From contig OZ024746.1 in the NCBI GenBank assembly GCA_964016885.1, forward strand, positions 99,200,001 through 99,264,000: a DNA stretch of 64,000 bases, in the 5' to 3' direction. Source of the DNA: Eledone cirrhosa (lineage: Eukaryota). The notes below the pieces were generated by a model. It was not told where the DNA came from and did no database searches. It saw nothing but the letters and a program-made list of their open reading frames with translations. The translations under genes were made by a program, and so were the position numbers. Each line of letters begins with the position of its first letter. Position 1 is the first letter of the stretch. Shown piece by piece: positions 1 to 35,594 of this stretch.

Positions 1-100
1 ATATATATATATATATGTATTCCTTTCTTTCTCTCTGTCTTTCTCTCTCTCTGTCTTTCTATCACACACATACACACACACACATATATATATATATATA

Positions 101-3399: not shown

Positions 3400-3443
<44 letters not shown>

Positions 3444-3448
<5 letters not shown>

Positions 3449-3609
3449 TGGCTTCTACATGACTAGAACTGTTTCATTGGGAAGAAATCATCATGATTTC
3501 TTCCGAATGAAACAGTTCTCGACCTGTAGGAGCCATTTCTATATTAAATATGTATACTCTATGTATTGTGTACCTTACTGTGGTTACGCCTGATTGAACT
3601 CGGGATAAA

Positions 3610-5783: not shown

Positions 5784-6847
5784 TGATAAGCATGCAGTTT
5801 TTCATCCATGGATACACTGCGATACTGCTGAGCCACTTCCCCAAGTATGAGTTTTTGATTATCACACAGGGAATATCTCTCGAGGAGTTCCTTCCAAACT
5901 CATGATCTTATCTGTTTCATGCAGATAGACTTGCTCGAGAGACGGGCTCCTACGCTTCGAGGTTCGTAGATGTTGTCGGAGAGATATGATGCGACATTCA
6001 AATGTTGTCTGGACTGATGTTAGGCCTCTGCCTCCCTGCTTACGTTTCAAGTAAAGGCGGTCTATGTCACTGTTGATGTGGAAGTTTCCGGTGTTGTTTA
6101 GTATTTTTCGAGTTCCAACATCAACTGTTCGGCTTTCGTCTATCGTCCAATTGAGTATTCCAAACGTTGGTGTTAGGACAGGCACAGCAAACACATTGTG
6201 AGCCACTGTTTTGTTTTGCGCCGAGAGTTCCGATGACCAGATCTTTCTTAATCGGGTGTAGTATTCCCTGCTTACGCGTTCTTTATTACAGATACCATTA
6301 TAGGATATGTTCTCATCTATCTCCAGGTATCTGTAGCTGTCCTCATCAGATATCGGTGAAACAGTTAAGCCATTGATGACAATGTTGCTAGATTGGGTTG
6401 TTGTTTTGCCCGCTTTACAGTCATGTATGAGCATTTATATTGGCCAAACTCCATTACTATATCCTTTGAGAACGTTGTAACCAGGTCAAGATTTTTCTTC
6501 ATCCCATCCATGTTCTTGGCAGAGTTTCAGATCGTCCACAAAGAAATTATGGGTTAGGTTCTTATTTCTGTCCTCCTGTGAGCCAATGATGTATCCCTCT
6601 CATTTCTTGAGCAGAAAGGACAAGGGGTTTAATGACAAGATGAATAATATCACAGAGAGACTGTCCCCCTGCAATATTTTATTTTATCAGTGAAAATAGA
6701 GTCCTCCCTCTCTGTCTTTAACCTTAGGATAGTAGCCCAAGAAGAAGACAGCCTCTCTATGGCTCTGACGATAATGTCTGGGACTTTAGCAAGTTGGAGG
6801 GCCTCTATCATCCAAGAGTGGGGAACAGAATCGAAAGCTTTCCTGTA
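5784..6847 (-). mobile_element. R4/Dong-like RLE non-LTR retrotransposon RT fragment
   Basis: Minus-strand translation gives KAFDSVPHSW, LQGDSLSVILFILSLNPLSFLL, HNFFVDDLKL, YRYLEIDE and DRLYLKRKQGGRGL. Frameshifted. Confidence 0.8.
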
Positions 6848-6929
6848 TGTATGTATGCATATATATATTTCTAATATAGAAATGGCTTCTACGGGACTAG
6901 AACTGTTTCATTCAGTAGAAATCATCAGG

Positions 6930-7478: not shown

Positions 7479-7584
7479 CACACACATATATATATATATA
7501 TATTTAATATTGAAATAGCTTCTTCAGAACCAGAACTGTTTCATTCAGTAGAAATCATCAGGAAATATATACGGTATATATACA

Positions 7585-28770: not shown

Positions 28771-29074
28771 CATATATATATAGCTTCTAAAGAATTTCCC
28801 TTTTCTTTAAACCATTGAACCCCACCCATCCTGTAGACACCTGTCTTACAGCCATTGCTAGTCTCAGTGATAAACTAGGATTGGTATTCCAAATATGATT
28901 TTGTTTACAGTATTCTTCCTGCCTTTGTTAATACTATAGCTTTAAAGAATTAGCTTTTAATGAACTCCCTTTTCTTTAAATCCTTCAACCAATAACGTCC
29001 ACCCATCCCAATCCCCACCCTCTCCTACCACCAGAAAAGAAAAGATATAAATACCACTACTTACTTGGACAGCC

Positions 29075-29125
29075 AGCTCCCTGATGATTTCTCACGAATG
29101 AAACAGTTCTAATCCCGTAGAAGCT
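29075..29125 (+). ncRNA. Hammerhead-like motif (family C, imperfect)
   Basis: AGCTCC-CTGATGA (29081-29087)-TTTCTCACGAAT-GAAA-CAG..CCG-TA-GAAGCT. One mismatch each in stems I and III, and a U.U pair at the base of stem II. Confidence 0.5.
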
Positions 29126-29219
29126 CTTCTATATTAAAACGATATATATATATATATATATATATCGTTTCTGAATTTGTTTAGCAAGATTCTTTATCTG
29201 AAAACGTGTGTTGAAACCG

Positions 29220-29577
29220 ATATTGTTATACTTTGGGAGGGTCATGTTGTCAATAAGAAACACACGCACCAGTTGCTTTCACTCCAATTTATTATAAATT
29301 AAATTTATAAATTTAACAATTTATAAATTCCCGGTTGGTTCGTTGGTTCCACAACCGGACGGTTGTTCATATATTGTCACTGAAGAGGTCACAGAATGTG
29401 TGACGAAAGAACTTTGACAATATATGAACAACCGTCCGGTTGTGGAACCAACCAACCAACCGGAAATTTATTATAAATTCTTAAATTTATAAATTTAATT
29501 TATAATAAATTGGAGTGAAAGCAACTGGTGCGTGTGTTTCTTATTGGCAACATGACCCTCCCAAAGTATAACAATAT
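29220..29577. mobile_element. 160-bp fold-back cassette whose loop is a hammerhead core
   Basis: Arms 29220-29379 and 29415-29577. Loop CTGAAGA-G-GTCACA GAATG TGTGAC-GAAA-GAAC-TT. Arm-end relatives at ~30615-30680 and ~35020-35065. Confidence 0.75.
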
Positions 29578-30262
29578 ATATATATATAGATAGATAAAAG
29601 AAATCAAAGAACGCCTATATACTCAAACAATATATATATATATATGTAAATGAAACATTTAAAATGTCATATTGATATTTGAAATGTGGTTCCTTGTAGT
29701 AACGTTACACTTTAGAGTGCGTAGCTCAGAGATAAAAGAGTCACTCCAGGCAGTGCTGCCACTTCTCCGAATTGAGAGATCACAACTCCGATACTATGGG
29801 CATGTGGTTAGAATGTCTCAGGAGATCAGAGAGTCACTCCAGGTAGAGCCACTACTTCTCTAAATTGAGAGATAACAGCTCCGATACTATGGGCATGTGG
29901 TTAGAATGTCTCAGGAAAGAATCGCTGGACAAATTTCACAGGCAAAATCAACTGGCAAGAGACCCAGGAGTAGACCTCGAACAAGATGGTTGGATAACAT
30001 CCATGAGCTTGGCTGGTCTTGCTTGAGAATTCAGCCGGATCAATTGGAGACGGTTGCTTCTGACAGGACCCAATGGAAAGAGTGTTTGAATAAGTGGGCG
30101 AAGAAGAAGATATTGATATTCACTGTAATCACCACAGTTTCATCTAGTTAAAATATATAACTTATGATGATGACACTTTCTAATATATATATTTTACCTA
30201 AATAAAGAATCATGCAGCTTTTGGCGTCGTTCAATATACCTACTTGAGATTCGGCAATTATA

Positions 30263-30452: not shown

Positions 30453-31142
30453 TTTGGCAATTATATAATGATGTGTGACACTTGTAATATGTGTACCAAG
30501 AACATAGAGACAAATACTTATCTATATACCACAACTGTAAGATATTGACTACTAGGACAACAGTATCTAACCAAGTTAGAACATCATCCGTGATTATTTT
30601 GATTATTTTATTGTTTTATTGTTATATTTGGGGAGGGTCATGTTGTCCTAATATTGCAAACAAATATTAAAACACACTGTTTGGAATCGGCCCCATCCCA
30701 CGACCCTCTCAGGAATAAGTGGGCGGAGAGGAAGTCAAAGAACACTCAAGTCTCAGTAATTAACTTTATATACAGGGTGTCCATAAAGTCTCTTACAGAG
30801 GCAATTGATGAGATATCTTAATCAGATTTGTTCTATCTTCTCAGTAGTTATCACAGTTTTTAATCAAACTGCATTTGTGTATTTCTGGTATCCTGTTGAT
30901 TAAAGAGGTACTGTTAAATGAACTCCTAATATGTACATTGGTTTGTCTGTATGCCTGTCTATCAGATTGCTTACCTGTTTACCGATATCTATCTATATCA
31001 GTCTCGTTACTAATGTGGGTAAACAACCAGCTGTTTAACTGCTTACCGGTATCTGTTTATTTGTCTGCATATTTATTGGCTATATCTGTTTTCCGTCTAC
31101 TTAACCGAGTAATGATAGTACGTTTTGCAATTATAATACTAA

Positions 31143-31375
31143 ACATAAACCTAACCCTAACCCTAACACTAATCCTAACCTAACCCTAATCCGAACCCTA
31201 ACCCTAACACTAATCCTGACCTAACCCTAACCCGAACCCTAACACTGACCTAACCCTAATCCTGACCTAACCCTAATACTAACCTAAACCTAACCTGAGC
31301 CCGAACCCTAACCCTAATCTTTACCATAATCCTAACCTAACCCCAACACTAACTCTAACCCTAACACTAACCCTG
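31143..31375 (+). repeat. Degenerate interstitial (CCCTAA)n telomere-like tract
   Basis: Tandem AACCCT units with ACACT/ATCCT/GACCT variants. Confidence 0.8.
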
Positions 31376-31570
31376 CGGTTACTTATGTATATGTATTATG
31401 GCCCCTATTTATTATCCTACCAAACATTTTATATTTGTTTACTGGAACAATAGATCTTCAAATCGCATCAACTTATTTGAGCAATTACCTTTTATTTTAT
31501 TTTTACAGGTATAAATTCTTTGAAGTTTGGAGGATTTTTTATTTCAAAAGACTTTCAGAATAATTAATTG

Positions 31571-32700
31571 TTAGGGTCTCGGAAGGAAAAAGAGTGCGCG
31601 TTATAGCGTACCTTAAAAGGGTTAGAGGTAGACCCGATATAAGAGCTGGTATTCGAAGCAGTTTTAACCGTGCACCTATAGACTATGTTGGGTGTCAGGC
31701 AGTGTCAATTTAATGGGCATGCATTGGGGGTAACGGCAGTTGCAGTTGCTTCTGCGGTTAGTGAGAGTAAGGTAATTTAACCTAAGCGGTAGGTCCGTGC
31801 TAGAAGGATTAGATGGGGGAGGTGTGCTACATAGTCTATAGGTGCACGGTTAAAACTGCTTCGAATACCAGCTCTTATATCGGATCTACCTCTAACGCGC
31901 ACTCTTTTTCCTTCCGAGACCCTAGCAACAGATGTTCGACATCGCTAGCTAGGTTCATTAAAAACCTTAAATTAAACAACGTTCAACACTCACTAAAATG
32001 GGATATCGTGGCTAGGGCCCAACCGTTCAATGGACAAAGAAAATCTTGTGATCTCTGTATTACAGAAGCATATTACATAACTCTATCACGACCTCTACCG
32101 ATTAACGATAGAACGGAGGTAACTATTAGCTGTCAACATCGAAGGGCTAATTCATTCACCAACAGAATATTTGACCCAACATAGTCATCTAGCCCCATTT
32201 TTACTTGTAACTAATAAGTTAAATTGCAATGAACAACTTGGATAATTATAAGTTACCTCCTCTACATTGTCTCTCAATTAAAAACATTTAAAAATTAGCA
32301 CTTAACTATAAAGACCCACAATTTCTAACCTCTCGAGGAGCTACTTCCCCTGAAACTACCCTCTAATTAGTAAAGTAAATATGCCCTTTGGCAGCCATCT
32401 TGTTACCCATAGGCAGATCTCACACAATGCAGCCTCGACAGATGAATACTGTTTGATTATGGCTGACAACTGATGCAACCAAGACACCATAGTAAAAACC
32501 AATATATGGAACATTATATTATGTAACATTCTCTCATTATTTTAATTTATATTCCTTTGAAGTTCCGATGAGCCACTCTGTCTTTTAAATATGTTAATTA
32601 TTTTCAACTGAACCAGATCAATTATGATATATAGTTATCTGATCCAGAATATTATATAGAGTAGCGAAACAATTAATTATTATTAATATTATTATTATTA
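31571..32700 (+). mobile_element. Naiad-type Penelope-like 3' end (GIY-YIG) with inverted 5' segment
   Basis: ORF 31813-32184 has IVYRC..YIGST..STSLA..WDIV..CDLC..CQHR. Segment 31571-31812 is an inverted overlapping copy carrying CNCR..CPL..CL. Confidence 0.8.
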
Positions 32701-35556: not shown

Positions 35557-35594
35557 GTTTCAACGTTTCGGACAGAAGTCCTTCATCAGGATAA
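35557..35594 (-). ncRNA. Minimal Penelope-type hammerhead motif
   Basis: Minus strand reads CTGATGA-A-GGAC TTCT GTCC-GAAACGTT with a weak stem I. Degenerate plus-strand counterpart at ~35789-35820. Confidence 0.55.

What the first reader, a model, noticed from the sequence alone, without database searches (positions are those of the whole stretch)
29220..29577. Giant hairpin whose loop is exactly a hammerhead catalytic core
The 35-nt loop is CTGAAGA + stem II (GTCACA/TGTGAC) + GAAA + GAAC + TT, and the ~160-bp arms are in effect stem I extended. This is the clearest case for snap-back priming at stem I. A plus-strand transcript would be a ribozyme with a very stable stem I that could nick its own hairpin loop to give linear dsRNA. 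Stem III (AG-AA-CU) is minimal and may need dimerisation. Several arm mismatches argue against an artefact.
Basis: partly seen in the sequence, partly recalled or inferred. Interest (0 to 1): 0.75.

Follow-up and report, generated by a model that had tools for sequence, protein, structure and literature searches.

The report
Folded-back Penelope retrotransposon stub
This hairpin is a real but ordinary head-to-head stub of a Penelope-type jumping gene, one of thousands in this animal genome, and its loop matches the element's hammerhead ribozyme motif likely because two DNA copies of the element's RNA were joined at the four bases of the ribozyme's first stem, not because the ribozyme cut there.

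Summary
The hairpin and the hammerhead (HHR) core are real. The insertion is larger than reported (29166-29577, in a TA tract). It is two head-to-head 3' ends of a Penelope-like retrotransposon (RT plus C-terminal GIY-YIG, Neptune/Nematis-type linker).

Fold-backs are a very common insertion form: at least 2,526 genome-wide, and an estimated 64% carry the whole core in both arms. The exact stem-I junction was found 8 times. Native helix I is 4 bp, not 9. The junction is that 4-nt microhomology; helix II and other palindromes give equally recurrent junctions.

Simple snap-back fails here: only the shorter arm carries the 3' tail, as in 56 of 130 asymmetric insertions. Arm ends do pile up at the ribozyme's 3' edge, but 2-3 nt past the predicted cut, and 15 of 15 such arms copied lineage-specific bases across it, so those templates were uncut. 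Best model: two cDNAs primed from both sides of the break, at two AATAT start sites 60 nt apart, joined by microhomology. Self-nicking is untested and unlikely for a monomer. The scan already noted this model for other Penelope families in this genome.

The parts
29142..29165 (.). (AT)n tract, left side of the target site
   Evidence: sequence; 149 of 172 short-site arm ends are followed by ATATATAT
29166..29219 (-). PLE 'tail' (60 nt in the family; 5' coding part of the ORF), present on the left arm only
29220..29379 (-). Left (short) arm: inverted pLTR 3' part, ending exactly at the predicted scissile bond
29376..29379 (+). GTCA: 4-nt microhomology at the junction = 5' strand of native helix I
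29380..29414 (+). Minimal type I HHR core: CUGAAGA 29380-86, extra G 29387, helix II 29388-93/29399-404, GAAA 29405-08, helix III G-AA-C 29409-12, U16.1 29413, U17 29414; predicted cut after 29414
   Evidence: variation
29415..29577 (+). Right arm: pLTR 3' part from helix I 3' strand (29415-18) to the first start site AATAT; likely ORF ATG at 29552
29578..29588 (.). (AT)n tract, right side of the target site
   Evidence: sequence

Best explanation
This is a 5'-truncated, head-to-head insertion of a Penelope-like retrotransposon in a TA tract, likely made when both sides of the cut DNA primed separate cDNAs on the element's RNA and these were joined at the four complementary bases of ribozyme helix I. 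Shown: family identity, TA target, two fixed 3' end points 60 nt apart (both AATAT|CG), one tail per insertion, microhomology-rich junctions, and read-through of the scissile bond in most arms. Inferred: the GIY-YIG endonuclease nicks both strands; one cDNA starts at the tail site (here the left arm) and one at the first site (here the right arm); the left cDNA stopped at the 3' edge of the ribozyme fold, the right one copied through the core; GTCA on one annealed to TGAC on the other and repair sealed the joint. The loop equals the core because any RNA stem is an inverted microhomology at DNA level.
For: Family: 27,045 exact matches of a 3'-end 23-mer. A copy at L111 has a 919-aa open stretch with DKSG, GAAIG, YVDD, CX4CxxC and a two-Cys GIY-YIG, plus tandem pLTRs. 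Fold-backs with both 12-mer anchors: 169 + 741 + 1,616 = 2,526 at gaps up to 420 nt. Exact stem-I fold-backs: 8 found (6 of the 12 matches plus L002 and L005). Tail on exactly one arm in 173 of 181 scorable insertions; on the long arm 74, on the short arm 56, symmetric 43. Arm 3' ends: 172 at site 1 and 164 at site 2 of 373 scored. Both arms share one source: diagnostic hexamer identical in 136 of 166 pairs (shuffled mean 57, max 69); in L111 two arms share 32 of 33 A>G changes, and an edited 22-mer occurs only in those two arms. Microhomology of 4 nt or more in 21 of 74 clean junctions against about 1 expected. Recurrent junctions at helix II (4 times) and another palindrome (5 times) in 191 sampled. 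All 15 testable arms ending 2-3 nt past the cut carry their partner's own TT or TA. In vitro precedent: the anole PLE protein nicks and extends both strands from two start sites and uses uncleaved RNA (PMC11167929).
Against: Short-arm ends do peak at 0..+3 (16 of 94; P=0.01 for the best 4-nt window under a uniform model), so the ribozyme edge matters in some way. This locus ends exactly at the cut, so run-off on a cleaved RNA cannot be excluded for this one event. 5 of 6 scorable stem-I junctions have the tail on the long arm, as snap-back predicts (not significant against 74:56, about p=0.19 by hand). The shared A>G edits in L111 fit snap-back as well as two primers. An endonuclease that trims a self-primed hairpin at either site could also leave one tail. 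The 201-420 class was thinly sampled (23 of 1,616) and gaps above 420 not at all. No RNA run was listed, and the RT Pfam hit is below its cut-off.
Confidence: 0.72

Rival explanations
1. Ribozyme-defined junction: the left cDNA ran off the 5' end of a self-cleaved RNA (starting UGAC) and its terminal GTCA annealed to a second cDNA made on uncut RNA.
For: The left arm ends exactly at the predicted cut; the junction recurs 8 times; there is a peak at 0..+3 and, in junctions with inserted bases, a drop from 8 to 1 between bins 0..3 and 4..7; the HHR varies only at tolerated positions.
Against: Only 5 of 22 ends in 0..3 lie at 0 or +1; 17 lie at +2/+3 and 15 of 15 testable ones copied lineage-specific bases across the cut. 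Clean junctions: 9 include the cut against 8.9 expected; ends at 0/1 are 1 against 5.8 expected. Weighted share at 0/1 is 0.8%. The TA stretch just downstream is about as dense.
Confidence: 0.13
2. Snap-back (self-priming) at helix I: one strand copied through the core, folded back by TGAC/GTCA and copied itself; the tail asymmetry arose later by endonuclease trimming or deletion.
For: Self-priming was proposed for PLE inverted structures (PMC3846280, passages), and the tail was ascribed to EN-mediated resolution (PMC8557442). 5 of 6 scorable stem-I junctions fit. Arms share private variants (66 shared rare variants).
Against: At this locus and in 56 of 130 asymmetric insertions the tail is only on the arm that would be the copy. 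60 of 134 junctions at gaps 30-160 carry inserted bases rather than a clean fold.
Confidence: 0.12
3. A MITE or fold-back DNA transposon with a chance loop, or an assembly artefact.
For: Long inverted arms and TA flanks; no listed contig spans the locus.
Against: Arm lengths and junctions vary from copy to copy; copies continue into an RT/GIY-YIG ORF; the arms differ at 5 places; opposite-strand joints near the 5' edge of the HHR also appear in contigs of another organism.
Confidence: 0.03

Closest known systems
C-terminal EN+ Penelope-like elements, Neptune/Nematis type (PMC8557442, passages; PMC3846280, passages)
   Same: RT plus C-terminal GIY-YIG, CX2-5CxxC linker, two Cys inside GIY-YIG, tandem pLTRs, adjacent inverted 5'-truncated copy, tail at one end, pLTR including the first codons, (TA)n target
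   Different: Tail is 60 nt rather than 30-40; this insertion is a pLTR-only stub; clade not resolved by a tree
Minimal hammerhead ribozymes of metazoan PLEs (PMC4209133, parts 1-2 of 4)
   Same: Helix I 4 bp, unpaired base between 9 and 10.1, G10.1-C11.1, minimal helix III; opposite-strand pairs 100-700 bp apart are reported there
   Different: Helix II 6 bp (7-8 reported for the Schistosoma motifs); 15.2-16.2 stretch G-AA-C is not a perfect palindrome; here helix I is extended by the inverted arm
Anolis Poseidon element PAc in vitro (PMC11167929, parts 1-2 of 4)
   Same: Two start sites that define the tail, both strands extended, AT-rich target, uncut RNA as main template
   Different: PAc starts at a site not homologous to the target in an AC-rich stem-loop; here both start sites are AATAT, which matches the TA target; the paper does not treat the inverted junction in the parts read
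Animal non-LTR retrozymes (10.64898/2026.07.22.740005, part 1 of 5)
   Same: Type I HHR, PLE-related, no coding capacity in this stub
   Different: Not a tandem array of HHR monomers; it is a piece of an autonomous family
LINE-1 twin priming (recalled, no call)
   Same: Two primers from the two sides of the break, microhomology at the inversion
   Different: L1 arms copy different parts of the RNA; here both arms copy the same part, giving a hairpin

Membership tests
EN+ Penelope-like element | RT and C-terminal GIY-YIG in one ORF | tested here: met
   Family copy L111:757-3513(-), 919 aa open; motifs; Pfam RVT_1 E=8.9e-4, below cut-off; PDB intron endonuclease 1mk0 E=0.29 at residues 828-906, weak
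EN+ Penelope-like element | Tandem pLTRs, inverted 5'-truncated copy, tail at one end | tested here: met
EN+ Penelope-like element | RT phylogeny with PLE/TERT references | not tested
   no reference set on hand
EN+ Penelope-like element | Retained spliceosomal intron | not tested
   no RNA run listed
Neptune/Nematis clades | CX2-5CxxC linker and CCHH cysteines inside GIY-YIG; (TA)n target | tested here: met
   CIDKKCITC at 793 and YSIRC...C...YIGE at 816; definitions; Neptune against Nematis not resolved
Hydra clade | CCHH absent, CxCX5C linker, DKT motif | tested here: not met
   DKSG, CX4CxxC and two internal Cys present
Naiad/Chlamys | N-terminal endonuclease | tested here: not met
   EN is C-terminal
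PLE minimal hammerhead ribozyme | CUGANGA and GAAA cores, NUH site, extra base after A9, G10.1-C11.1, helix I 4-5 bp | tested here: met
   polymorphic positions above 15% are loop II, loop III, H17 (U/A) and one base outside helix I, 4 of 46 columns; in other organisms' contigs N7, loop II, loop III and H17 vary
PLE minimal hammerhead ribozyme | Palindromic helix III for dimer folding | tested here: inconclusive
   self-dimer has two A.A mismatches, -1.2 kcal/mol
PLE minimal hammerhead ribozyme | Self-cleavage | not testable with these tools
   needs an assay
Rfam hammerhead families | Covariance-model match | tested here: not met
   none among 18 matches at E<=10 or the 150 of 170 rows shown
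MITE / fold-back DNA transposon | Fixed terminal inverted repeats and fixed internal junction across copies | tested here: not met
   junctions scattered over 195 called insertions
Non-LTR retrozyme | Tandem HHR-bearing monomers | tested here: not met
   single core in a head-to-head stub

The most novel reading that the evidence does not exclude
In this Penelope family every two-armed insertion records twin priming on one RNA molecule from two AATAT sites 60 nt apart, and the conserved hammerhead acts during integration as an uncut fold that stalls reverse transcriptase 2-3 nt into its core rather than as a cutter; thousands of genomic junctions would then map RT pausing and settle self-priming against two-primer synthesis for PLEs.
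Probability: 0.45. Interest if true: 0.5.

Novelty: new member of a known kind. Interest (0 to 1): 0.27.

Why it matters
The locus itself is ordinary. The family is useful because the origin of PLE inverted ends and the role of their HHRs are stated as open (PMC8557442, PMC3846280). Tail placement, shared A>G edits and read-through of the scissile bond give a genomic test that favours two primers on uncut RNA. Four literature searches showed no paper that makes this test, but the library lacks most subscription papers and earlier scan notes reached a similar model.

Tried and rejected
Native 9-bp stem I: rejected. MITE: rejected. Cleavage run-off as the general cause of junctions: rejected by the microhomology-conditioned test and the 15 of 15 read-through. 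Early impression that the arms come from two different pLTR variants (GAC/GGC site): dropped as a likely selection effect of the query, since most copies carry the common form. Rfam: only microsatellite and generic hairpin matches. Expression: no RNA holder listed. Read check of the locus: contigs too short to bridge it. Twin bulged hairpins after both start sites, a lead from earlier notes on Hydra families: only weak, dissimilar folds here (-2.4 and -7.7 kcal/mol). A>G-rich pairs among the paired arms: none at the threshold used, although L285 looked edited by eye. Whole-window inverted-repeat scan was swamped by microsatellites. Sequence look-up in earlier findings was blank. No protein database search, structure prediction or tree was run. 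Supplements of the papers were not opened; those of PMC8557442 and PMC4209133 might list related families.

Full report
Observation. The inverted repeat is as described: arms 29220-29379 and 29415-29577 around 35 nt, differing by 4 substitutions and one 3-nt indel. The loop reads CUGAAGA, an extra G, helix II of 6 bp, GAAA, G-AA-C, UU, with a predicted cut after 29414. Such a core with a helix II of 5 bp or more occurs once in the window and never in 100 shuffles. The left arm continues to 29166, and both outer ends abut (AT)n.

Family. The window lies in a 3.0-Gb genome, G000. A 22-mer of the arm occurs 2,843 times and a 23-mer of the 3' end 27,045 times. Non-folded copies read ...AATCCCCA-GTCA-CTGAAGAG, so native helix I is 4 bp (contig loose ends). 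Longer copies run upstream into an ORF end. L111 holds a 919-aa open stretch with DKSG, GAAIG, YVDD, a CX4CxxC linker and a GIY-YIG with two internal cysteines, between tandem pLTRs. Pfam RVT_1 hits weakly, below its cut-off. By the definitions in PMC8557442 (passages) this fits Neptune or Nematis, not Hydra or Naiad; no tree was built. The tail is the start of the reading frame that begins at the ATG seen at window 29552, as described for other PLEs (PMC3846280, passages).

The ribozyme motif is of a known type. PLE minimal HHRs have a 4-5 bp helix I, an unpaired base before helix II and almost no helix III, and a single motif showed no cleavage in vitro (PMC4209133, parts 1-2 of 4). Among sampled arms only 4 of 46 columns vary above 15%: loop II, loop III, H17 (U or A) and a base outside helix I. 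In contigs of other organisms N7, loop II, loop III and H17 vary while flanks diverge. Helix III pairs have probability below 0.01 in the monomer. Extending helix I does not repair helix III (inference), so self-nicking of a hairpin transcript is unlikely without a partner or protein; it was not tested, and no RNA run was listed.

How common is the fold-back? Gapped patterns with two exact 12-mer anchors gave 169 (gap 0-85), 741 (86-200) and 1,616 (201-420) insertions (sub-windows 134 and 236). I fetched most of the first-listed places in genome order (contigs C1-C4) and called 195 distinct junctions. I dropped 4 by eye (L172, L207, L220, L285), and three listed places with TA-only spacers were not fetched, leaving 191. 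Weighted by class, about 64% keep the whole core in both arms, 5.8% have a short arm ending at 0..+3 and 0.8% at 0 or +1; the largest class rests on 23 of 1,616. The exact stem-I fold-back was found 8 times: 6 of the 12 matches plus L002 and L005. In a complete list of 37 short-gap fold-backs of this sub-lineage only this locus had it.

What sets the junction? Microhomology is strongly enriched: 21 of 74 clean junctions have 4 nt or more, against about 1 expected. Recurrent joints sit on RNA stems and palindromes: helix II 4 times, a downstream palindrome 5 times. Conditional on microhomology length, 9 of 74 include the scissile bond against 8.9 expected (p=0.55). Against my reading, short-arm ends do peak at 0..+3 (16 of 94, P=0.01 for the best window), and ends at +2/+3 exceed the microhomology null (12 against 5.5, p=0.003). 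But 17 of the 22 ends in 0..3 lie at +2/+3, and in 15 of 15 testable cases the two bases beyond the cut equal the partner arm's lineage-specific TT or TA. Those cDNAs crossed an intact bond. I infer RT pausing at the edge of the fold. This locus ends at 0, so cleavage run-off stays possible for this single event.

Snap-back or two primers? Arm 3' ends fall at two points 60 nt apart, both AATAT|CG: 172 and 164 of 373 scored arms. The tail is on exactly one arm in 173 of 181 scorable insertions; in asymmetric ones it is on the long arm 74 times and on the short arm 56 times. A self-copy cannot carry a tail that its template lacks, so simple snap-back fails for those 56 and for this locus. Five other scorable stem-I junctions have the tail on the long arm and are compatible with it. 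Both arms derive from one source: a diagnostic hexamer agrees in 136 of 166 pairs (shuffled mean 57), and in L111 two arms share 32 of 33 A>G changes that the downstream pLTR lacks, with an edited 22-mer found nowhere else in the genome. The anole PLE protein nicks and extends both strands from two start sites on uncut RNA (PMC11167929, parts 1-2 of 4), which matches. Self-priming was the earlier proposal (PMC3846280) and survives only with symmetric trimming of the product.

Novelty. Inverted PLE stubs with a one-sided tail and opposite-strand HHR pairs are described. Searches listed no paper that tests two primers against self-priming with genomic junctions. Earlier unreviewed notes of this scan reached a two-primer model for other families in this genome; I held that reading before the look-up, and they are not independent evidence. 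Verdict: real, ordinary member of a known kind; the family-level junction statistics have modest value for an open mechanistic question.

Noticed in passing
L111:300-6700 (G000:C1:2083400-2090400): Near full-length copy with tandem pLTRs; the upstream pLTR and the inverted arm share 32 of 33 A>G changes absent from the downstream pLTR, likely ADAR-type hyper-editing of one RNA fixed in DNA. L285 looks similar by eye.
   Followed up: partly
window 29040-29165: End of a different repeat with a hammerhead-like CTGATGA...GAAA motif at 29080, sharing the same TA tract; related pieces near 3410-3550, 6846-6929 and 7486-7562.
   Followed up: no
window 263, 7153, 23367, 23499, 36127, 45907: Further CTGATGA...GAAA motifs, some followed by a palindromic TGCGCA helix III, likely remnants of other PLE families; another at 35589 on the minus strand.
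   Followed up: no
window 30617-30647: 31-nt stub of the same family's 3' end.
   Followed up: no
window 31150-31375: Degenerate telomere-like (TAACCC)n array.
   Followed up: no
window 31570-31930: Another inverted repeat with arms of roughly 100 nt, seen by eye.
   Followed up: no
window 29729-29914: 93-nt tandem duplication at the start of an ORF-like remnant, possibly a LINE 3' end.
   Followed up: no
L052:1459-1467 and 1507: In contigs of another organism (run X5), opposite-strand joints cluster at the 5' edge of the HHR, and hundreds of contigs share only the HHR segment with unrelated flanks.
   Followed up: no
family junctions about 90-108 nt upstream of the cut: The commonest turning zone in the 201-420 class lies in a CA-rich stretch about 100 nt upstream of the cut; it could mark an RNA 5' end or another pause.
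   Followed up: no
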